This document shows positions 28,101-57,581 of a DNA stretch of 64,000 nucleotides, in pieces. The notes beneath the pieces are model-generated. The model saw only the letters and a program-made list of their open reading frames with translations. It was not told where the DNA came from and did no database searches. A program made the translations under genes and the position numbers. This DNA is from Escherichia coli (GTDB lineage Bacteria > Pseudomonadota > Gammaproteobacteria > Enterobacterales > Enterobacteriaceae): assembly GCF_030384885.1 (NCBI RefSeq), contig NZ_CP128613.1; one strand, given 5' to 3'. Positions within the stretch are counted from its first letter, which is position 1. Every line of letters begins with the position of its first letter.

Positions 28101-30113
28101 ACGGTTACATTGCCGATTGGTGATTTTAACGGTGAATTGCGCGTCATGGCACAAGCATGGACGGCAGATGATTTCGGTAGCAACGAAAGCAAAGTGGTTG
28201 TTGCCGCACCGGTGATAGCAGAACTGAATATGCCGCGCTTTATGGCCAGCGGTGACACCTCACGTCTGACGCTGGATATCACTAATCTTACCGATAAACC
28301 GCAAAAACTGAACGTTGCTCTGACCGCCAGTGGCTTGCTTGAACTGGTTAGCGATTCACCCGCAGCCGTTGAATTAGCGCCGGGCGTGCGAACCACGCTG
28401 TTTATCCCGGTGCGAGCATTGCCGGGTTATGGTGATGGTGAAATTCAGGCCACTATTAGCGGGTTAGCGTTACCGGGCGAAACCGTTGCCGATCAGCATA
28501 AGCAGTGGAAAATGGGTGTCCGTCCGGCATTTCCGGCACAAACCGTCAATTACGGTACGGCGTTGCAGCCTGGTGAGACATGGGCGATTCCAGCTGATGG
28601 ATTGCAAAACTTCTCGCCTGTTACGCTGGAAGGGCAATTGTTGTTGAGCGGCAAAGCACCGTTGAATATTGCACGTTATATCAAAGAGTTAAAAGCGTAT
28701 CCGTACGGTTGTCTGGAGCAAACCGCCAGCGGCCTGTTCCCGTCACTTTACACCAACGCAGCCCAACTGCAGGCGTTGGGAATCAAAGGCGACAGTGATG
28801 AGAAGCGCCGTGCGGCAGTCGATATCGGCATTTCTCGTTTACTGCAAATGCAACGTGATAACGGTGGCTTTGCCCTGTGGGATAAAAACGGTGACGAAGA
28901 GTACTGGCTGACGGCTTACGTGATGGATTTCCTGGTCCGCGCAGGTGAGCAGGGTTACAGCGTGCCGACAGAAGCCATTAACCGGGGGAATGAGCGTCTA
29001 CTGCGCTATTTACAAGATCCGGGCATGATGTCGATTCCGTATGCGGATAATCTCAAAGCCAGTAAATTCGCCGTACAGTCTTACGCTGCGCTGGTGCTGG
29101 CCCGTCAGCAAAAGGCACCGCTGGGTGCGCTGCGTGAAATCTGGGAGCATCGTGCCGATGCTGCGTCTGGATTACCGCTGCTGCAACTTGGCGTTGCGCT
29201 GAAAACCATGGGCGATGCAACGCGTGGTGAAGAAGCGATTGTGCTGGCACTGAAAACGCCGCGCAATAGTGATGAGCGGATATGGCTGAGTGATTACGGT
29301 AGTCCACTGCGCGACAACGCATTGATGCTCTCCTTGCTGGAAGAGAACAAATTGCTACCCGATGAGCAGTACCCTCTGCTGAACACACTTTCGCAGCAGG
29401 CGTTCGGTGAACGCTGGTTATCAACTCAGGAAAGCAACGCGCTGTTCCTGGCTGCCCGTACGATTCAGGATTTACCGGGCAAATGGCAGGCGCAAACGTC
29501 TTTCTCTGCTGAGCTGCTGACAGGTGAGAAAGCGCAAACCAGCAATCTGAATAGCGATCAACTTGCCACCTTACAGGTGACCAACAGTGGCGATCAGCCG
29601 TTATGGCTGCGTGTGGATGCCAGCGGTTATCCGCAATCCGCCCCTTTACCGGCGAGCAATGTGCTGCAAATCGAGCGCCATATTCTTGGCACTGACGGTA
29701 AGAGCAAATCGCTGGATTCGTTACGTAGCGGCGATCTGGTACTGGTCTGGTTGCAGGTCAAAGCCAGTAACAGCGTGCCGGATGCTTTGGTCGTTGATTT
29801 ACTGCCTGCTGGCCTGGAACTGGAAAACCAGAACCTGGCTAACGGCAGCGCCAGCCTGGAGCAAAGTGGTAGCGAAGTGCAAAACCTACTCAGTCAAATG
29901 CAACAAGCGAACATTAAGCACATTGAGTTCCGTGACGATCGCTTTGTGGCGGCGGTTGCCGTTGATGAATATCAACCAGTCACGCTGGTGTATCTGGCGC
30001 GGGCGGTAACGCCGGGAACATACAATGTTCCGCAACCAATGGTGGAATCGATGTATGTTCCCCACTGGCGGGCGACTGGCGCGGCTGAAGATCTGTTGAT
30101 TGTCAGACCGTAA
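25152..30113 (+). CDS. yfhM: Bacterial alpha-2-macroglobulin (ECAM) lipoprotein with thioester site
   Basis: 1653 aa; lipobox LALAGC; thioester motif CLEQ (GCLEQTASG) near nt 28710-28721. Confidence 0.9.
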   Translation: MKKLRVAACMLMLALAGCDNNDNAPTAVKKDAPSEVTKAASSENASSAKLSAPERQKLAQQSAGKALTLLDLSEVQLDGAATLVLTFSIPLDPDQDFSRVIHVVDKKSGKVDGAWELSDNLKELRLRHLEPKRDLIVTIGKEVKALNNATFSKDYEKTITTRDIQPSVGFASRGSLLPGKVIEGLPVMALNVNNVDVNFFRVKPESLPAFISQWEYRNSLANWQSDKLLQMADLVYTGRFDLNPARNTREKLLLPLGDIKPLQQAGVYLAVMNQAGRYDYSNPATLFTLSDIGVSAHRYHNRLDIFTQSLENGAAQQGVEVSLLNEKGQTLTQATSDAQGHVQLENDKNAALLLARKDGQTTLLDLKLPALDLAEFNIAGAPGYNKQFFMFGPRDLYRPGETVILNGLLRDADGKALPDQPIKLDVIKPDGQVLRSVVSQPENGLYHFTWPLNSNAATGMWHIRANTGDNQYRMWDFHVEDFMPERMALNLTGEKTPLTPKDEVKFSVVGYYLYGAPANGNTLQGQLFLRPLREAVSALPGFEFGDIAAENLSRTLDEVQLTLDDKGRGEVSTESQWKETHSPLQVIFQGSLLESGGRPVTRRAEQAIWPADALPGIRPQFASKSVYDYRTDSTVKQPIVDEGSNAAFDIVYSDAQGVKKAVSGLQVRLIRERRDYYWNWSEDEGWQSQFDQKDLIENEQTLDLQADETGKVSFPVEWGAYRLEVKAPNEAVSSVRFWAGYSWQDNSDGSGAVRPDRVTLKLDKASYRPGDTIKLHIAAPTAGKGYAMVESSEGPLWWQEIDVPAQGLDLTIPVDKTWNRHDLYLSTLVVRPGDKSRSATPKRAVGVLHLPLGDENRRLDLALETPAKIRPNQPLTVKIKASNKNGEMPKQVNVLVSAVDSGVLNITDYVTPDPWQAFFGQKRYGADIYDIYGQVIEGQGRLAALRFGGDGDELKRGGKPPVNHVNIVAQQALPVTLNEQGEGTVTLPIGDFNGELRVMAQAWTADDFGSNESKVVVAAPVIAELNMPRFMASGDTSRLTLDITNLTDKPQKLNVALTASGLLELVSDSPAAVELAPGVRTTLFIPVRALPGYGDGEIQATISGLALPGETVADQHKQWKMGVRPAFPAQTVNYGTALQPGETWAIPADGLQNFSPVTLEGQLLLSGKAPLNIARYIKELKAYPYGCLEQTASGLFPSLYTNAAQLQALGIKGDSDEKRRAAVDIGISRLLQMQRDNGGFALWDKNGDEEYWLTAYVMDFLVRAGEQGYSVPTEAINRGNERLLRYLQDPGMMSIPYADNLKASKFAVQSYAALVLARQQKAPLGALREIWEHRADAASGLPLLQLGVALKTMGDATRGEEAIVLALKTPRNSDERIWLSDYGSPLRDNALMLSLLEENKLLPDEQYPLLNTLSQQAFGERWLSTQESNALFLAARTIQDLPGKWQAQTSFSAELLTGEKAQTSNLNSDQLATLQVTNSGDQPLWLRVDASGYPQSAPLPASNVLQIERHILGTDGKSKSLDSLRSGDLVLVWLQVKASNSVPDALVVDLLPAGLELENQNLANGSASLEQSGSEVQNLLSQMQQANIKHIEFRDDRFVAAVAVDEYQPVTLVYLARAVTPGTYNVPQPMVESMYVPHWRATGAAEDLLIVRP

Positions 30114-48088: not shown

Positions 48089-49666
48089 ATGACGGAAAAC
48101 ATTCATAAGCATCGCATCCTCATTCTGGACTTCGGTTCTCAGTACACCCAACTGGTTGCGCGCCGCGTGCGTGAACTGGGTGTTTACTGCGAACTGTGGG
48201 CGTGGGATGTGACAGAAGCACAAATTCGTGACTTCAATCCAAGCGGCATTATTCTTTCCGGCGGCCCGGAAAGCACCACCGAAGAAAACAGCCCGCGTGC
48301 GCCGCAGTATGTCTTTGAAGCAGGCGTACCGGTATTCGGCGTTTGCTATGGTATGCAGACCATGGCAATGCAGCTGGGTGGTCATGTTGAAGCCTCTAAC
48401 GAACGTGAATTTGGTTATGCGCAGGTTGAAGTCGTAAACGACAGCGCACTGGTTCGCGGTATCGAAGATGCTCTGACAGCAGACGGTAAACCTCTGCTCG
48501 ATGTCTGGATGAGCCACGGCGATAAAGTTACCGCTATCCCGTCCGACTTCATCACCGTAGCCAGCACCGAAAGCTGCCCGTTCGCCATCATGGCAAATGA
48601 AGAAAAACGCTTCTATGGCGTACAGTTCCACCCGGAAGTGACTCACACCCGCCAGGGGATGCGCATGCTGGAGCGTTTTGTGCGTGATATCTGCCAGTGT
48701 GAAGCCCTGTGGACGCCAGCGAAAATTATCGACGATGCAGTAGCCCGTATCCGTGAGCAGGTAGGCGACGATAAAGTGATCCTCGGCCTCTCTGGTGGCG
48801 TGGATTCCTCCGTGACTGCAATGCTGCTGCACCGCGCAATCGGCAAAAACCTGACTTGCGTATTCGTTGACAACGGCCTGCTGCGTCTCAACGAAGCAGA
48901 GCAGGTTCTGGATATGTTTGGCGATCACTTTGGTCTGAACATTGTTCACGTTCCGGCAGAAGATCGCTTCTTGTCAGCGCTGGCTGGTGAAAACGATCCG
49001 GAAGCAAAACGTAAAATCATCGGTCGCGTTTTCGTTGAAGTATTCGATGAAGAAGCGCTGAAACTGGAAGATGTGAAGTGGCTGGCGCAGGGTACTATCT
49101 ACCCTGATGTTATCGAATCTGCCGCGTCTGCAACCGGTAAAGCTCACGTCATCAAATCTCACCACAACGTGGGCGGCCTACCGAAAGAGATGAAGATGGG
49201 CCTGGTTGAACCGCTGAAAGAGCTGTTCAAAGACGAAGTGCGTAAAATTGGTCTGGAGCTGGGCCTGCCGTACGACATGCTGTACCGTCACCCGTTCCCG
49301 GGACCAGGGCTTGGCGTTCGTGTGCTGGGCGAAGTGAAGAAAGAGTACTGCGACCTGCTGCGCCGTGCTGATGCCATCTTCATTGAAGAACTGCGTAAAG
49401 CGGACCTGTACGACAAAGTTAGCCAGGCGTTTACCGTGTTCCTGCCGGTACGTTCTGTTGGCGTAATGGGCGATGGTCGTAAATACGACTGGGTTGTGTC
49501 TCTGCGTGCCGTCGAAACCATCGACTTTATGACCGCACACTGGGCGCATCTGCCGTACGATTTCCTTGGTCGCGTTTCCAACCGCATTATCAATGAAGTG
49601 AACGGTATTTCCCGCGTGGTGTATGACATCAGCGGCAAGCCACCGGCGACTATTGAGTGGGAATGA
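48089..49666 (+). CDS. guaA: GMP synthase (glutamine-hydrolysing)
   Basis: 525 aa; GATase catalytic Cys (GVCYGMQ) and PP-loop SGGVDSSV. Confidence 0.95.
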
Positions 49667-49691
49667 TTTGATCCCTGCACTATGAATTAGC

Positions 49692-49722
49692 AAAACCCTC
49701 TGTTACTACAGAGGGTTTTTTA
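49692..49722. terminator. Bidirectional rho-independent terminator between guaA and yfgI
   Basis: aaaaccctctgttactacagagggtttttt. Confidence 0.7.
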
Positions 49723-49759
49723 TACTCACGAATCATAGGATTGAAGTTACTGACATCGC

Positions 49760-50299
49760 TTAGTTAAACCAGCTGTCCGATTTGTTCTCTTCTGCTTTGC
49801 CCACGCTTTTCATCAGATCGCGACCGCCTTCAGTCATATTCCTGTTTGCGTCAGCTTCAGATTGCACCACATCGGTTTGCGCAGCTTTGTGCTTCAGTTC
49901 CTGATCGATAAATTCGTTTTCTCGCTTAACGCGGGCTTCTTCTTTCGCCAGCGCCAGTTTTTGTTTCTGAATCTCTAAGCTGCGTAGCTCATCTTCATAA
50001 CTTTGATCGCGTTTCTTGTCCGCAGTGGCTTCGGCGTCCAGTTTATCCTGACGAGCTTTCTTATTCGCCGCTGCCGTTGCCGCTCTTTTATTAGCCGCGG
50101 CCTGGGCGTTTGCGCGACGTTGCTTCTCTTGCTGGATTTCCCTGTTGCGCTCCGCGACCCATTCGTCATGCTGCCTTTGCTCTTCATTTTTACCTTGCTG
50201 TTCCGCTTCTGCGACAGCAGAGAGTTGATCCTGCAATGATGAGGCGATAGCCGGATAGCTTAAGGAGGCTAAGATGGCGCAAAGAAAAACTTTCTTCAT
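49760..50299 (-). CDS. yfgI: Secreted/periplasmic coiled-coil protein YfgI
   Basis: 179 aa; signal peptide then K/E/A/Q-rich coiled coil. Confidence 0.8.
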   Translation of the reverse strand: MKKVFLCAILASLSYPAIASSLQDQLSAVAEAEQQGKNEEQRQHDEWVAERNREIQQEKQRRANAQAAANKRAATAAANKKARQDKLDAEATADKKRDQSYEDELRSLEIQKQKLALAKEEARVKRENEFIDQELKHKAAQTDVVQSEADANRNMTEGGRDLMKSVGKAEENKSDSWFN

Positions 50300-50314
50300 G
50301 ACTCCTCCTGATTA

Positions 50315-50833
50315 TTAGCTCTTTTCAGGACATTTGGTATTTGGCTGAATACGCGTTTCGTTATACGTCGTGGTAATAACAACGGCTAAACCTGTCGTAA
50401 ACTGGCACTCTTTACCCACCTGGGTGGAGGTATACACTTTGGTGCCTTCCTTATACGTTAGAGAAACACCTTCCACTAAGGTTTTATCATTCACCATAGA
50501 ACCTGCTGCCGCGCCAACAGCTCCGCCGCCAACTGCACCTGCCGTCGTTCCGGAATTGCTGCCAGACCCCACGTTGTGGCCGATAACACCGCCAGCGACT
50601 GCACCAATAAGCGCGCCGAAGGCTTGTGCGTTTCGTTTATTTTGGGAGTTGTCTACGGCAACTTTTGCGGGAAGAATGGAAATAATATTAACGGTTTTAG
50701 TTTCTTGTTTGGTATTCAGTTGATCGGTTTGATAAACATCGGCGGCATGATCATCAGCATTTGACTGGCATCCTGCCAGAGTGAATGACGCTAACATTGC
50801 CACAGGCAGAAGACATTTTTTAAATTTCATCAC
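50315..50833 (-). CDS. yfgH: Outer-membrane lipoprotein with glycine-zipper domain YfgH
   Basis: 172 aa; lipobox LAGC; glycine-rich GxxxG repeats. Confidence 0.8.
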   Translation of the reverse strand: MMKFKKCLLPVAMLASFTLAGCQSNADDHAADVYQTDQLNTKQETKTVNIISILPAKVAVDNSQNKRNAQAFGALIGAVAGGVIGHNVGSGSNSGTTAGAVGGGAVGAAAGSMVNDKTLVEGVSLTYKEGTKVYTSTQVGKECQFTTGLAVVITTTYNETRIQPNTKCPEKS

Positions 50834-51143
50834 TATTCCTTGTTATACACATTACGAAAAATAAGATATTTAAGATCATCAAAAGAGGAAAGTAAATGTA
50901 TTGCGTATAAAGGAATAGATTAAATTTATTAAAATTCATGTGGAAAATAATTTATAAAAATACATCATTAAAACATATGTATTAATTTTATATTTATTTC
51001 GCAGCCAAACAGGATCAACATCAGTCAGGACAAAGACGTAAAATTTAAGATGAAAGAATATCTGCCGCTTTGATAATCCCAAAGAGCAAAAGCATCCGAC
51101 AGCGAGGTGCCGTTATGTTCAGTGAAGGTGGAGAAGGTAACCG

Positions 51144-51335
51144 CTAACGTTGTACCGGTGATTCGACGGAGAGTGTGGATTGCTGAGCTTCTTTTTTGCT
51201 CTGATGGTGCTGCCATGCACCGACGGACGAGTAGATAAAGCGGCCAAAGAAGAAGATAAAGCTGATGAGCAGTACGATACGGGTCATGCGACTGTTAAAT
51301 CGGTGTCGTTTTCGCATACTGGTTGCCTGACTCAC
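51144..51335 (-). CDS. yfgG: Small membrane protein YfgG
   Basis: 63 aa ORF with one TM segment inside an AT-rich spacer. Confidence 0.6.
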   Translation of the reverse strand: MSQATSMRKRHRFNSRMTRIVLLISFIFFFGRFIYSSVGAWQHHQSKKEAQQSTLSVESPVQR

Positions 51336-51545
51336 AAAAGGTTCCTTGAAGTATGTCCCACGCCGTGGACGGTACTTACATTAAGGCACAACAGGACAAA
51401 ATGGTCAATTCTTCGTTATGTAAAAAAGCGTCAGTGGATACATATTTTAATGTTATGGAAGTTAATTTAATTATTTACAATGATGATGTAATAATGATGA
51501 ATTAACATGATAAACGTAATAATTCATTAATCAGGGTTATTTTGT

Positions 51546-51559
51546 TTGATATATATCAA
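51546..51559. promoter_or_regulatory. FNR/CRP-family palindrome TTGAT-N4-ATCAA upstream of pdeF
   Basis: ttgatatatatcaa is a perfect FNR consensus, centred about 134 bp upstream of pdeF ATG; pdeF(yfgF) is reported as anaerobically induced. Confidence 0.5.
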
Positions 51560-51686
51560 TTGGAACTTTCATATGACACTTAGAATCAATGCTCTCTATA
51601 GTGATGAATAATCATCATTCGAAGTCAGGTGGGATGCCTGTCTGAATACACCTCCTTCAGGATGTGGGGGATTCTGCTGAGCATCT

Positions 51687-53930
51687 ATGAAACTGAATGC
51701 AACCTATATAAAAATACGTGATAAATGGTGGGGGCTTCCGCTGTTCCTGCCTTCTTTAATCTTGCCCATTTTCGCCCATATTAATACTTTCGCGCATATT
51801 TCTTCCGGTGAGGTTTTTCTCTTTTACCTGCCTCTGGCACTGATGATCAGCATGATGATGTTTTTCAGCTGGGCGGCATTGCCAGGGATCGCCTTAGGGA
51901 TTTTTGTCCGCAAATATTCAGAGCTGGGTTTTTACGAAACGCTCTCATTAACAGCTAATTTTATTATCATTATCATTCTCTGTTGGGGCGGTTACAGGGT
52001 CTTTACTCCCCGGCGTAACAACGTTTCACATGGTGATACCCGTTTAATTGCCCAGCGTATATTCTGGCAGATTGTATTTCCTGCAACGCTGTTTCTGATA
52101 CTTTTCCAATTTGCTGCGTTTGTTGGATTACTGGCGAGCAGAGAAAATCTGGTCGGCGTCATGCCCTTTAACCTCGGGACCTTAATCAATTATCAGGCCT
52201 TACTGGTGGGCAATCTGATTGGTGTTCCGCTGTGCTACTTCATCATTCGGGTGGTGCGAAATCCGTTTTATTTACGCAGCTATTATTCGCAATTAAAACA
52301 GCAAGTTGATGTGAAAGTCACCAAAAAAGAGTTCGCGCTCTGGCTACTGGCATTAGGTGCGTTGTTGTTGCTGTTATGCATGCCGTTAAATGAAAAAAGC
52401 ACGATTTTCAGCACCAATTATACCTTGTCATTATTGCTACCCCTGATGATGTGGGGAGCCATGCGCTATGGTTATAAGTTGATTTCGCTGCTCTGGGCGG
52501 TCGTGCTGATGATCAGCATCCACAGCTATCAAAATTACATTCCCATTTATCCTGGCTATACCACGCAACTGACCATAACCTCCTCCAGTTATCTGGTATT
52601 CTCTTTTATTGTCAATTATATGGCTGTACTGGCAACCCGTCAGCGAGCGGTAGTCAGACGCATTCAGCGGCTTGCGTATGTGGACCCGGTGGTTCATCTG
52701 CCAAATGTTCGCGCCCTGAATCGCGCGTTGCGTGATGCCCCCTGGTCTGCGCTTTGTTATTTACGCATCCCCGGCATGGAAATGCTGGTTAAGAACTATG
52801 GCATCATGCTACGGATTCAATACAAGCAAAAACTTTCTCACTGGCTGTCACCATTGCTGGAACCGGGTGAAGATGTTTATCAGCTTTCGGGTAACGATCT
52901 CGCGCTGCGACTGAATACAGAATCGCACCAGGAGCGCATTACCGCACTGGATAGCCATCTCAAGCAATTTCGTTTCTTTTGGGATGGAATGCCGATGCAA
53001 CCGCAGATTGGCGTCAGTTACTGCTATGTACGCTCGCCGGTGAATCATATCTACCTGCTGCTGGGAGAGCTAAATACGGTTGCTGAACTCTCCATCGTGA
53101 CCAACGCTCCAGAAAATATGCAGCGCCGCGGGGCTATGTATTTACAACGTGAATTGAAAGATAAAGTCGCGATGATGAATCGGCTACAGCAGGCATTGGA
53201 GCATAACCATTTTTTCCTGATGGCCCAGCCGATTACCGGTATGCGTGGTGATGTCTACCATGAAATTCTTCTGCGCATGAAAGGTGATAATGATGAACTG
53301 ATCAGCCCCGACAGCTTCTTGCCGGTCGCGCATGAATTTGGTTTATCGTCCAGTATCGACATGTGGGTCATTGAGCATACGCTGCAATTTATGGCTGAAA
53401 ACAGAGCGAAGATGCCCGCTCACCGTTTTGCGATTAATCTGTCGCCAACCTCGGTATGTCAGGCTCGTTTTCCCGTTGAAGTCAGTCAGCTGCTGGCTAA
53501 ATACCAGATTGAAGCGTGGCAACTTATTTTTGAAGTCACCGAAAGTAATGCGCTGACCAATGTTAAGCAGGCGCAAATCACCTTGCAGCATCTTCAGGAA
53601 TTAGGCTGCCAGATTGCGATTGATGATTTCGGCACCGGCTACGCCAGCTATGCGCGGCTTAAAAATGTGAATGCCGATCTCCTTAAAATTGACGGCAGTT
53701 TTATCCGCAATATTGTGTCAAATAGTCTGGATTACCAGATAGTGGCGTCGATTTGTCACCTCGCGCGAATGAAGAAAATGCTGGTAGTGGCAGAGTACGT
53801 TGAAAACGAAGAGATCCGCGAGGCGGTGCTTTCTTTAGGGATAGATTATATGCAGGGTTATCTTATTGGTAAGCCGCAACCGTTAATTGATACGCTGAAT
53901 GAAATCGAACCCATTCGCGAAAGTGCCTGA
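51687..53930 (+). CDS. pdeF: Cyclic-di-GMP phosphodiesterase PdeF (membrane MASE domain, degenerate GGDEF, EAL)
   Basis: 747 aa; multi-TM N-terminus, C-terminal EAL domain motifs (EVTE, DDFGTGYAS). Confidence 0.9.
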   Translation: MKLNATYIKIRDKWWGLPLFLPSLILPIFAHINTFAHISSGEVFLFYLPLALMISMMMFFSWAALPGIALGIFVRKYSELGFYETLSLTANFIIIIILCWGGYRVFTPRRNNVSHGDTRLIAQRIFWQIVFPATLFLILFQFAAFVGLLASRENLVGVMPFNLGTLINYQALLVGNLIGVPLCYFIIRVVRNPFYLRSYYSQLKQQVDVKVTKKEFALWLLALGALLLLLCMPLNEKSTIFSTNYTLSLLLPLMMWGAMRYGYKLISLLWAVVLMISIHSYQNYIPIYPGYTTQLTITSSSYLVFSFIVNYMAVLATRQRAVVRRIQRLAYVDPVVHLPNVRALNRALRDAPWSALCYLRIPGMEMLVKNYGIMLRIQYKQKLSHWLSPLLEPGEDVYQLSGNDLALRLNTESHQERITALDSHLKQFRFFWDGMPMQPQIGVSYCYVRSPVNHIYLLLGELNTVAELSIVTNAPENMQRRGAMYLQRELKDKVAMMNRLQQALEHNHFFLMAQPITGMRGDVYHEILLRMKGDNDELISPDSFLPVAHEFGLSSSIDMWVIEHTLQFMAENRAKMPAHRFAINLSPTSVCQARFPVEVSQLLAKYQIEAWQLIFEVTESNALTNVKQAQITLQHLQELGCQIAIDDFGTGYASYARLKNVNADLLKIDGSFIRNIVSNSLDYQIVASICHLARMKKMLVVAEYVENEEIREAVLSLGIDYMQGYLIGKPQPLIDTLNEIEPIRESA

Positions 53931-53968
53931 ACAGCGAGGGCCGACATTTCTCGTCGGCCCGCAAAGCA

Positions 53969-57581
<3,613 letters not shown>

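What the first reader, a model, noticed from the sequence alone, without database searches (positions are those of the whole stretch)
50834..51686. 850-bp AT-rich spacer with only a 63-aa ORF and a perfect FNR-type palindrome upstream of pdeF
Between yfgH and pdeF lies an unusually long, very AT-rich non-coding stretch containing only the small membrane ORF yfgG (minus strand). At 51546-51559 there is a perfect TTGAT-N4-ATCAA palindrome about 134 bp upstream of the pdeF start, consistent with reported anaerobic control of this c-di-GMP phosphodiesterase. The remaining sequence is unexplained and could hold further regulatory sites or short transcripts.
Basis: partly seen in the sequence, partly recalled or inferred. 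Interest (0 to 1): 0.4.

Follow-up and report, generated by a model that had tools for sequence, protein, structure and literature searches.

The report
Known FNR promoter of E. coli pdeF
The palindrome is the already published, ChIP-confirmed binding site through which the oxygen sensor FNR switches on the E. coli c-di-GMP phosphodiesterase gene pdeF, so the finding is ordinary; the one possibly new item is a strongly conserved, structured mRNA leader just downstream of it.

Summary
The window is E. coli guaA-yfgI-yfgH-yfgG-pdeF-ppx. Positions 50834-51686 are 36.5% GC against 51.7% for the window, and TTGATATATATCAA sits at 51546-51559, 134.5 bp before the pdeF ATG.

The site is published as the FNR box at -41.5 of a class II promoter (-10 TAGAAT). 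It has an FNR ChIP-seq peak and lies in an extended H-NS-bound region that masks FNR activation.

Most of the "unexplained" remainder is explained:
- The yfgG sigma70/sigmaS promoter (TTGACC-17-CTTAAT) has its start site at 51373.
- A PGAP 50-aa ORF (51353-51505) shows no coding constraint.
- The 310-bp yfgH-yfgG spacer is the variable upstream region of the Escherichia-specific yfgHI pair.

One item I could not find described is in the 93-nt pdeF leader. An 18-nt block, CAGGTKGGATGCCTGYCT, is nearly invariant from Escherichia to Phytobacter. It is followed by a hairpin with compensatory stem changes and a GGA between its arms in 43 of 44 distinct sequences. The block can also pair with the invariant translation-initiation region. 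This looks like a dual CsrA site, a start-site-masking switch, or both. It is untested.

The parts
50834..50945 (-). Proximal upstream region of yfgH(I), conserved within Escherichia. It includes the Shine-Dalgarno AAGGAA (plus-strand TTCCTT, 50836-50841). The promoter is not mapped.
   Evidence: Alignment of 6 Escherichia lineages. No minus-strand consensus promoter found. No separate sigma70 ChIP peak is listed here under anaerobiosis.
50946..51050 (.). Hypervariable, very AT-rich core (about 23% GC) of the yfgH-yfgG spacer.
   Evidence: Poorly alignable even within the genus. 16 of the 24 window-versus-K-12 differences in 50700-51800 fall in the 310-bp spacer, 5.2% against 0.6% in the yfgG-pdeF spacer. 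It lies inside the H-NS ChIP region. An in vitro FlhDC gSELEX peak maps near 51014.
51097..51112 (-). Weak terminator-like hairpin 3' of yfgG.
   Evidence: Consensus scan only: 5 pairs followed by a T-rich tail.
51144..51335 (-). yfgG, a 63-aa DUF2633 membrane protein involved in Ni/Co tolerance.
   Evidence: Pfam DUF2633 on the orthologues. Dub-seq phenotype, PMC6338753.
51336..51408 (-). yfgG 5' UTR (38 nt, with a 5' hairpin), start site 51373, -10 CTTAAT (51385-51380, preceded by TGc) and -35 TTGACC (51408-51403).
   Evidence: Published start site 2627275 (U00096.2) and sigmaS ChIP peak (PMC4447067). TTGACC-17-CTTAAT is listed in PMC3946193. The strongest anaerobic sigma70 ChIP peak maps to window ~51369. 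Both hexamers are invariant in 19 loci.
51418..51479 (.). Conserved blocks upstream of the yfgG promoter: ATGTAAAAAA (51418-51427, -45 to -54, UP-element-like), TGTTAT (51451-51456) and TATTTACA (51472-51479). The binding factor is unknown.
   Evidence: Phylogenetic footprint across 19 loci. PgrR (LysR family) genomic SELEX hit in the yfgF/yfgG spacer (PMC5934670). No assignment was made here.
51353..51505 (+). PGAP-annotated 50-aa 'hypothetical protein'; most likely not a gene.
   Evidence: Substitutions by codon position are 5/6/4, 3/1/4 and 4/2/4. The frame is broken in Escherichia sp. E1V33. The start is lost and stops appear in E. fergusonii. It overlaps the yfgG promoter and UTR and is absent from the K-12 annotation.
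51546..51559 (.). FNR box TTGATATATATCAA, centred at -41.5 of the pdeF promoter.
   Evidence: PMC3718329; FNR ChIP-seq peak and PWM score 16.08; half-sites invariant in 24 loci.
51581..51586 (+). pdeF -10 hexamer TAGAAT; inferred start site about 51594.
   Evidence: PMC3718329. TAnAAT is invariant at fixed spacing from the FNR box.
51573..51602 (+). Predicted constitutive sigma70 promoter ATGACA-18-TATAGT, overlapping the FNR-dependent promoter.
   Evidence: Consensus scan and PMC3946193. Not conserved outside Escherichia.
51600..51619 (+). 5'-proximal leader hairpin AGUGAUGA-AUAA-UCAUCAUU. The sequence turns over between genera but a hairpin is retained in most.
   Evidence: Per-species folds; fold of the E. 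coli leader.
51623..51643 (+). Leader hairpin 1, the nearly invariant block. Stem CAGG/CCUG is extended by AG/CU. Loop UGGGAUG carries GGA at 51632-51634. A mini-ORF AUG CCU GUC UGA runs 51634-51645.
   Evidence: Present in 52 of 52 pdeF leaders. One match in the window against 0.07 expected.
51644..51674 (+). Leader hairpin 2. Outer stem GAAU/AUUC, inner stem CCUCC/GGGGG, loop UUCAGGAUGU with GGA at 51660-51662.
   Evidence: RNAalifold; compensatory changes; GGA between the arms in 43 of 44 distinct sequences.
51676..51690 (+). Invariant translation-initiation region GCUGAGCAUCUAUGA. GAGCAUCU can pair with GGAUGCC of hairpin 1.
   Evidence: Invariant columns. The long-range helix is in the minimum-energy fold of 14 of 24 species.

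Best explanation
The 853 bp are ordinary, largely characterised E. coli regulatory DNA.

(1) The palindrome is the FNR operator of a class II promoter. Under anaerobiosis, dimeric [4Fe-4S]-FNR binds TTGAT-N4-ATCAA centred at -41.5, contacts RNA polymerase, and starts pdeF transcription about 93 nt before the ATG from the -10 TAGAAT.

(2) The whole spacer, plus flanking coding DNA, is covered by an extended H-NS-bound region. This explains its AT-richness. H-NS lowers FNR occupancy and masks FNR activation, so pdeF needs more than anaerobiosis to be expressed.

(3) The left part of the yfgG-pdeF spacer is the strong divergent sigma70/sigmaS promoter of yfgG (start site 51373).

(4) The yfgH-yfgG spacer is the poorly conserved upstream region of yfgHI. 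This pair is adjacent to yfgG only in Escherichia, at a site between guaA and yfgG that holds different genes in other genera.

(5) Inferred, not shown: the pdeF leader adds a post-transcriptional layer. Two hairpins each display GGA, 28 nt apart, which is the geometry of a dual CsrA site. The invariant GGAUGCC of the first hairpin can instead pair with GAGCAUCU immediately 5' of the start codon, masking it. Binding of CsrA, or ribosomes on the 3-codon mini-ORF, would shift that equilibrium.
For: FNR:
- Perfect consensus at 51546-51559.
- Published position -41.5 with -10 TAGAAT, class II (PMC3718329).
- FNR ChIP-seq peak and PWM 16.08 (PMC3688515 Tables S5/S6).
- Half-sites, -10 and their spacing invariant in 24 loci spanning Escherichia, Salmonella, Citrobacter, Enterobacter, Kluyvera and Phytobacter.

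H-NS:
- ChIP-chip regions convert to window 50240-52374 (anaerobic) and 49685-54248 (aerobic) (Table S3).
- FNR ChIP signal rises from 0.35 to 1.68 in a delta-hns delta-stpA strain (Table S7).
- yfgF shows O2-dependent expression only in that strain (Table S11).
- yfgF is listed among FNR-bound operons with no FNR-dependent expression change in wild type (Table S9).
- H-NS is flagged in this spacer in PMC3946193.

yfgG promoter.

Escherichia-specific yfgHI and variable cargo.

Leader:
- Invariant block and covarying hairpin.
- A covariance model finds it in 52 of 52 pdeF leaders and nowhere else in 0.75 Mb searched, including the paralogue pdeA.
- The E. coli hairpin 2 loop contains CAGGAUG, matching the CsrB repeat consensus CAGGA(U/A/C)G. 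The spacing falls in the 10-63 nt bridging range (PMC7652899).
- The long-range mask is thermodynamically favoured in 14 of 24 species.
Against: For points 1-4 there is little against.
- The primary paper (Lacey 2010) could not be read here, so I do not know whether the start site was mapped experimentally or inferred.
- Table S6 of Myers 2013 marks the FNR site itself as having no nucleoid-associated-protein overlap, although Table S3 places it inside an H-NS region.

For point 5:
- No CsrA-pdeF link was found in the held literature or in the E. coli CsrA CLIP-seq supplements. pdeF is not expressed aerobically, so that absence is weak evidence.
- Neither GGA overlaps the Shine-Dalgarno region, unlike most CsrA-repressed targets.
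- Hairpin 1 shows no covariation because it never varies.
- The formal covariation test on the model-fitted alignment is only modest: 79.6% paired against 77.5% in shuffles, and the controls slid by +2 and +3 show similar double-change counts.
- The E. coli leader as a whole does not fold better than shuffles (z = -0.07).
- The long-range helix is broken without compensation in C. rodentium, P0100 and P0103.
Confidence: 0.9

Rival explanations
1. The FNR site serves the divergent gene yfgG as well as, or instead of, pdeF.
For: yfgG is about 2.2-fold higher anaerobically (Table S12, ratio 0.45). The yfgG-pdeF pairing and the FNR box are conserved together in nearly all loci.
Against: The box centre is 179.5 bp upstream of the yfgG start site (51373), far outside class I or class II positions. 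It sits exactly at -41.5 of the pdeF -10 with invariant spacing. Myers et al. assign the site to yfgF (Table S9).
Confidence: 0.08
2. The invariant leader block works as a translated mini-ORF (AUG CCU GUC UGA, 51634-51645). Its translation opens the start-site-masking helix, or otherwise couples to pdeF translation. No RNA-binding protein is involved.
For: The AUG is present in 42 of 44 distinct leaders. CAGG lies 4 nt upstream as a possible Shine-Dalgarno. The AUG lies inside the segment that pairs with the pdeF initiation region. In one lineage (MGYG110) the ORF extends and ends in AUGA, overlapping the pdeF start.
Against: P0100 and P0103 have AUA yet keep the hairpin and GGA. ORF length, stop position and frame relative to pdeF vary between genera. 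The Shine-Dalgarno spacing is short, and both it and the AUG are buried in hairpin 1. The AUG is also part of the GGAUG CsrA-type motif, so its conservation is ambiguous.
Confidence: 0.15
3. The invariant block is a target for something else: a base-pairing small RNA, another RNA-binding protein, or a DNA operator (CAGG-N7-CCTG) for a repressor bound downstream of the start site.
For: 18-nt near-invariance exceeds what a CsrA site normally needs. Hairpin 1 shows no covariation, so an RNA structure is not proven for it. The block is palindromic as DNA.
Against: No Rfam family matches. No complementary small RNA could be identified, from memory only. The adjacent hairpin 2 shows RNA-type compensatory changes. 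The one stem change seen in hairpin 1 (A to G in P0103) gives a G-U pair, tolerated in RNA but not in a DNA dyad.
Confidence: 0.15
4. The palindrome is a chance match in AT-rich DNA with no function.
For: AT-rich DNA raises the chance frequency of TTGAT/ATCAA. A second perfect copy sits inside the yfhM coding region.
Against: 0.11 expected per window. In vivo FNR ChIP peak. Invariant half-sites at fixed distance from an invariant -10 in 24 loci, while the flanks diverge.
Confidence: 0.01

Closest known systems
Class II FNR-activated promoters of E. coli (for example yfiD or narK; FNR site at -41.5)
   Same: Perfect TTGAT-N4-ATCAA centred 41.5 bp upstream of the start site, overlapping the -35 position, with a good -10 (TAGAAT). 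FNR occupies it in vivo. This is the published yfgF/pdeF promoter itself.
   Different: FNR binding does not suffice for induction in exponential anaerobic glucose medium. Activation appears only without H-NS/StpA (Myers 2013, Tables S9 and S11).
H-NS-masked FNR targets (the category in Myers et al. 2013 that includes hlyE)
   Same: An AT-rich promoter region inside an extended (>1 kb) H-NS ChIP region. [quoted passage not shown]
   Different: FNR is still detectably bound in wild type here, so this is a reduced peak rather than a fully silent site.
CsrA-controlled mRNA leaders (glgC, the c-di-GMP genes dgcT/ycdT and dgcZ/ydeH, flhDC, ymdA)
   Same: Two GGA motifs, each presented in a short hairpin loop, 28 nt apart. 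One matches the CsrB repeat CAGGAUG. The gene belongs to the c-di-GMP network that CsrA already controls. The candidate site overlaps a segment able to mask the start region, as I recall for ymdA activation.
   Different: No binding or regulation data exist. Neither GGA overlaps the Shine-Dalgarno sequence. Hairpin 1 is far more conserved than typical CsrA sites. The direction of any effect is unknown.
Divergent sigma70/sigmaS promoter of yfgG
   Same: TTGACC-17-CTTAAT with a mapped start site, strong sigma70 and sigmaS ChIP signals, and a conserved UP-like A-tract.
   Different: The conserved upstream blocks (TGTTAT, TATTTACA) have no assigned factor. PgrR is only an in vitro SELEX candidate.

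Membership tests
Class II FNR-dependent promoter | FNR consensus inverted repeat TTGAT-N4-ATCAA | tested here: met
   Perfect match at 51546-51559. Half-sites invariant in 24 orthologous loci.
Class II FNR-dependent promoter | Site centred near -41.5 relative to the transcription start | tested here: met
   The centre (51552.5) is 28.5 bp upstream of the first base of the invariant -10 hexamer (51581-51586), so the centre is at -41.5 if the start site is 51594. Published as -41.5 (PMC3718329). The start site itself was not measured here.
Class II FNR-dependent promoter | FNR occupancy in vivo | not testable with these tools
Class II FNR-dependent promoter | FNR- and anaerobiosis-dependent expression | not testable with these tools
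   Reported by Lacey et al. 2010, as cited in PMC3718329 and PMC5635695. [quoted passage not shown]
H-NS-silenced AT-rich region | AT-rich DNA within an extended H-NS ChIP region, with derepression when H-NS is removed | tested here: met
   Composition tested here: 36.5% GC with 22-23% cores. Occupancy and derepression come from PMC3688515 Tables S3, S7 and S11 and the H-NS flag in PMC3946193.
CsrA-binding mRNA leader | [quoted passage not shown] | tested here: met
   Hairpin 1 loop UGGGAUG and hairpin 2 loop UUCAGGAUGU. GGA lies between the hairpin 2 arms in 43 of 44 distinct leaders while the rest of the loop varies. Consensus taken from PMC7652899.
CsrA-binding mRNA leader | Two sites 10-63 nt apart, allowing one dimer to bridge them | tested here: met
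   GGA at 51632 and at 51660, 28 nt apart. Similar spacing in all genera.
CsrA-binding mRNA leader | A site overlapping the Shine-Dalgarno sequence or start codon (typical of repressed targets) | tested here: not met
   The nearest GGA is 25 nt upstream of the AUG. The SD-like GAG (51679-51681) carries no GGA.
CsrA-binding mRNA leader | Demonstrated CsrA binding or csrA-dependent expression | not testable with these tools
   No yfgF or pdeF entry in the E. coli CsrA CLIP-seq supplements. No paper in the library links them. pdeF is not expressed in the aerobic cultures used.
Conserved cis-regulatory RNA structure | Base pairs maintained by compensatory changes across species | tested here: inconclusive
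   Hairpin 2: 4 of 7 pairs have changes on both sides, with 24 such cells against 9.1 in shuffles (0 of 500 shuffles reach it), but the controls slid by +2 and +3 are similar. With the register optimised, the 4th pair is A-U 15, U-A 12, U-G 5, C-G 4, G-C 4, mismatch 4. Hairpin 1 and the long-range helix never vary, so they are uninformative.
Small protein gene (PGAP ORF 51353-51505) | Reading frame preserved and substitutions biased to third codon positions | tested here: not met
   Substitutions by codon position 5/6/4, 3/1/4 and 4/2/4. Frameshift in E1V33. Start lost and stops present in E. fergusonii.
Any Rfam RNA family | Covariance-model match at or near the gathering score | tested here: not met
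   The best hits in 50600-51900 score 16-22 bits against thresholds of 35-100 and are unrelated eukaryotic families.

The most novel reading that the evidence does not exclude
The pdeF leader is an undescribed, Enterobacteriaceae-wide riboregulatory element. The two GGA hairpins would bind CsrA, and that binding would compete with a helix that masks the pdeF translation start. This would put an anaerobic c-di-GMP phosphodiesterase under combined FNR (oxygen), H-NS and Csr (carbon and growth state) control. It would also explain why FNR binding alone does not induce the gene.
Probability: 0.3. Interest if true: 0.45.

Novelty: already known. Interest (0 to 1): 0.2.

Why it matters
The flagged feature adds nothing new. 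The FNR site, its position, its in vivo occupancy and its masking by H-NS are all published.

The modest value lies elsewhere:
- A clean account of what fills the spacer: the mapped yfgG promoter, a spurious PGAP ORF, and a variable Escherichia-specific yfgHI upstream region.
- A testable lead. The strongly conserved pdeF leader may be where CsrA or translation-coupled control enters. That could explain the published puzzle of an FNR-bound but uninduced promoter, and would link the Csr and c-di-GMP networks through a phosphodiesterase rather than a cyclase.

Tried and rejected
- Rfam scan of 50600-51900 at E up to 10: only noise.
- The 50-aa PGAP ORF as a small protein: rejected on codon-position and frame evidence. 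Its weak tblastn conservation in other genera comes from the conserved yfgG promoter blocks.
- The sigma70 promoter ATGACA-18-TATAGT as the main pdeF promoter: it is not conserved outside Escherichia, unlike TAnAAT.
- The leader motif as a widespread or mobile RNA element. A metagenome scan for the 18-mer returned 80 loci, of which 31 carry the pdeF start-region motif. With further pdeF-context variants, 28 of them scored as full leaders with the covariance model, and six others tested gave only weak partial matches. The rest look like chance matches in unrelated DNA. The paralogue pdeA has no such leader.
- Covariation support for the long-range GGAUGC/GCAUCU helix: impossible because both sides are invariant. 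The three natural variants break it without compensation.
- Assigning the conserved yfgG-upstream blocks to a known factor. ArcA, OmpR, CpxR, Zur, MntR, NsrR and Fur consensus sequences were compared from memory and none fits convincingly.
- A consensus yfgH promoter: none found.
- The genome contigs peptide scan missed Salmonella and Citrobacter. These were recovered through the protein search and encoding-contig look-ups.
Full report
**What the window is.** ORFs and annotation identify E. coli guaA (48089-49666, +), yfgI (49760-50299, -), yfgH (50315-50833, -), yfgG (51144-51335, -), pdeF/yfgF (51687-53930, +) and ppx (53969-55510, -). The 1.1 kb around the finding occurs in 5423 of 5426 complete E. 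coli genomes, always on the chromosome. In this region the K-12 MG1655 coordinate equals 2680625 minus the window position.

**Observation.** TTGATATATATCAA is at 51546-51559. The window has two perfect TTGAT-N4-ATCAA sites against 0.11 expected. The centre is 134.5 bp from the pdeF ATG. GC is 36.5% over 50834-51686 against 51.7% for the window, with cores of 22-23% at 50850-51050 and 51410-51560. yfgG itself is 49.5% GC. The stretch is really two spacers, 310 bp and 351 bp. PGAP also places a 50-aa hypothetical protein at 51353-51505 in most genomes but not in K-12.

**The palindrome is the published FNR site.**
[quoted passage not shown] Expression is maximal anaerobically.
- TAGAAT is at 51581-51586, so the start site is about 51594 and the leader is about 93 nt.
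- Myers et al. 2013 (PMC3688515 supplements) list an FNR ChIP-seq peak at yfgF/yfgG. They also list this 14-mer as a predicted site with PWM score 16.08.
- Their U00096.2 coordinates convert to U00096.3 by adding 1977. That offset is validated by two features, the FNR site and the yfgG start site.
- In 24 orthologous loci (Escherichia clades, E. fergusonii, Salmonella, four Citrobacter, Enterobacter, Kluyvera, Phytobacter and unnamed relatives), the half-sites TTGA/TCAA, the -10 TAnAAT and their spacing are invariant. The flanks diverge.

**Why the DNA is AT-rich, and why FNR is not enough.**
- Myers' H-NS ChIP-chip regions convert to window 50240-52374 (anaerobic, 2.1 kb) and 49685-54248 (aerobic, 4.6 kb). 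The whole finding therefore lies in an extended H-NS region.
- The FNR ChIP signal at yfgF/yfgG rises from 0.35 to 1.68 in a delta-hns delta-stpA strain (Table S7).
- yfgF is listed among FNR-bound operons with no FNR-dependent expression change in anaerobic glucose medium (Table S9).
- yfgF is listed among genes whose O2-dependent expression appears only without H-NS/StpA, with ratio 0.23 (Table S11).
- Shimada et al. 2014 also flag H-NS in this spacer.

**The yfgG side.**
- Shimada 2014 predicts TTGACC-17-CTTAAT for yfgG. Peano 2015 reports a sigmaS ChIP-seq peak in the spacer and a yfgG start site at 2627275 (U00096.2), which is window 51373.
- That start lies exactly 7 nt downstream of CTTAAT (51385-51380, minus strand). 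TTGACC is at 51408-51403.
- The strongest anaerobic sigma70 ChIP peak of the neighbourhood maps to window ~51369.
- Both hexamers are invariant in 19 loci. So are an A-tract ATGTAAAAAA at -45 to -54 (UP-element-like) and two further blocks, TGTTAT (51451-51456) and TATTTACA (51472-51479), for which I could assign no factor.
- PgrR, a LysR-type regulator, has an in vitro SELEX hit in the spacer.
- YfgG is a DUF2633 membrane protein needed for Ni/Co tolerance.

**The PGAP ORF is not a gene.** Against the window sequence, substitutions by codon position are 5/6/4 (strain E69), 3/1/4 (SCPM) and 4/2/4 (E. whittamii). The frame is broken in Escherichia sp. E1V33. In E. fergusonii the start is lost and stops appear. 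The ORF overlaps the yfgG promoter and 5' UTR, which accounts for its patchy DNA-level conservation.

**The yfgH-yfgG spacer.**
- yfgH-yfgI sit next to yfgG only in Escherichia. Elsewhere the guaA-to-yfgG gap holds other cargo: a transposase fragment plus DUF1493 in Salmonella, an MscS-like channel in one Citrobacter, HTH_46, phage lysis genes, AbiEi, or a LysR-MFS pair.
- Within Escherichia, only the yfgH-proximal ~110 bp (50834-50945) are conserved. Positions 50946-51050 are hypervariable.
- The spacer carries 16 of the 24 window-versus-K-12 differences in 50700-51800, which is 5.2% against 0.6% in the yfgG-pdeF spacer.
- No consensus promoter was found, and no separate anaerobic sigma70 peak is listed there. 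Together with a weak yfgG terminator (51097-51112), this suggests H-NS silencing, read-through from yfgG, or both. This is inference.
- An in vitro FlhDC SELEX peak maps near 51014.
- The yfgHI orthologues in S. Typhi are SdiA-regulated, but the E. coli fusion was not.

**The pdeF leader is the one possibly new item.** Across genera whose PdeF proteins are only 57-76% identical, the leader keeps four features.
1. A 5'-proximal hairpin whose sequence turns over (E. coli 51600-51619).
2. A nearly invariant block GYCAGGNKGGATRCCTGYYT (51623-51643). It folds as CAGG/CCUG with loop UGGGAUG.
3. A second hairpin (51644-51674) with a CCC/GGG core.
4. An invariant GAGCATCTATGA around the start codon.

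Structure evidence:
- RNAalifold predicts both hairpins.
- A covariance model built on this region finds all 52 pdeF leaders (51-86 bits). Only six sub-20-bit partial matches appeared among the 22 chance 18-mer loci searched, in 0.75 Mb in total. It finds nothing upstream of the paralogue pdeA.
- The 18-mer on its own occurs by chance in unrelated metagenomic DNA, so this is not a mobile element.
- Formal covariation on the model-fitted alignment is modest. Paired cells are 79.6% against 77.5% in shuffles (2 of 500 shuffles reach this). There are 24 double-change cells against 9.1 (0 of 500). Controls slid by +2 and +3 give similar double-change counts, and runs of G blur the register.
- With the register optimised per sequence, the fourth pair of hairpin 2 is A-U 15, U-A 12, U-G 5, C-G 4, G-C 4, mismatch 4. 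That assignment favours pairing.

What stands out is the GGA. It is invariant in the hairpin 1 loop. It lies between the arms of hairpin 2 in 43 of 44 distinct sequences, while the rest of that loop changes freely. The exception is L083, which also carries an insertion. In E. coli the hairpin 2 loop reads UUCAGGAUGU, and some Citrobacter-like leaders read UACAGGAUGU.

PMC7652899 gives the CsrB repeat as CAGGA(U/A/C)G and the SELEX consensus as RUACARGGAUGU. It notes that GGA usually lies in a short hairpin loop, and that one CsrA dimer can bridge two sites 10-63 nt apart, best above 18 nt. Here the two GGAs are 28 nt apart.

**A second property of the leader.** GGAUGC(C) of hairpin 1 (51632-51638) is complementary to G(A)GCAUCU (51679-51686), which lies immediately 5' of the AUG. 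This long-range helix is in the minimum-energy fold of the E. coli leader and of 14 of 24 species. There it beats the local-hairpin conformation by 1.4 to 9.6 kcal/mol. It would bury the weak Shine-Dalgarno and the bases up to the start codon. This may explain why both blocks are invariant.

It cannot be tested by covariation. It is broken without compensation in C. rodentium, P0100 and P0103. As a whole, the E. coli leader does not fold better than shuffled sequence (z = -0.07).

**Mechanism proposed for the leader (inferred).** The leader alternates between a masked state (the long-range helix) and an open state (the local hairpins). CsrA bound to the two GGA loops would hold the GGAUG segment away from the initiation region, giving activation. 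From memory, this resembles what has been described for ymdA. Alternatively, CsrA could occlude the ribosome's approach, giving repression. The direction cannot be decided from sequence.

A rival is the 3-codon mini-ORF AUG CCU GUC UGA, whose AUG lies in the same segment. Two lineages have AUA there, and the ORF's length and frame vary. No paper in the held library links pdeF/yfgF with CsrA, and the E. coli CLIP-seq supplements do not list it. pdeF is below detection in aerobic cultures, so that absence carries little weight.

**Verdict.** The FNR interpretation is supported and already known, including in vivo binding and H-NS masking. The remaining sequence is mostly explained. A conserved pdeF leader element is a reasonable experimental lead of modest interest.

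Noticed in passing
window 29962-29975: The only other perfect TTGAT-N4-ATCAA in the window (TTGATGAATATCAA) lies inside the yfhM (alpha2-macroglobulin) coding region, about 150 bp before its stop at 30113. It is not in the FNR site tables of Myers 2013.
   Followed up: partly
window 51353-51505 (+): PGAP annotates a 50-aa hypothetical protein (WP_000017552.1) in most E. coli genomes. Codon-position, frame and start-codon evidence indicate it is not a gene. It overlies the yfgG promoter.
   Followed up: yes
window 50828-50841 (-): yfgH is annotated from GTG (50833), only 2 nt after the Shine-Dalgarno AAGGAA. The ATG at 50830 has a normal 5-nt spacing and gives a classic lipoprotein signal peptide (MKFKKCLL...). 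The E. fergusonii gene call is 171 aa. The true start is probably the ATG.
   Followed up: partly
loci L081-L090 and L008-L018, between guaA and yfgG: The guaA-to-yfgG gap is a variable-cargo site. It holds yfgHI in Escherichia; a transposase fragment plus DUF1493 in Salmonella; an MscS-like channel, HTH_46, phage lysis genes, AbiEi or a LysR-MFS pair in other genera. The yfgG-pdeF-ppx-ppk side is constant.
   Followed up: partly
window 41556-45093: About 3.5 kb absent from K-12 replaces the yfgJ region between der and xseA. It encodes an 822-aa intimin/invasin-like (inverse autotransporter-like) ORF at 42025-44493 and a 157-aa ORF at 44496-44969. Flanking DNA is only about 95% identical to K-12.
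   Followed up: partly
window 51336-51373 (-): The 38-nt yfgG 5' UTR begins with a hairpin (GUCCAC...GUGGGAC in E. coli). Its arms change together between genera (CCC...GGG in Kluyvera and Citrobacter).
   Followed up: no
window 51418-51479: Three blocks upstream of the yfgG promoter (ATGTAAAAAA, TGTTAT, TATTTACA) are conserved from Escherichia to Kluyvera with no assigned regulator. In Kluyvera the middle region forms a perfect palindrome, AACATTAATTAATGTT.
   Followed up: partly
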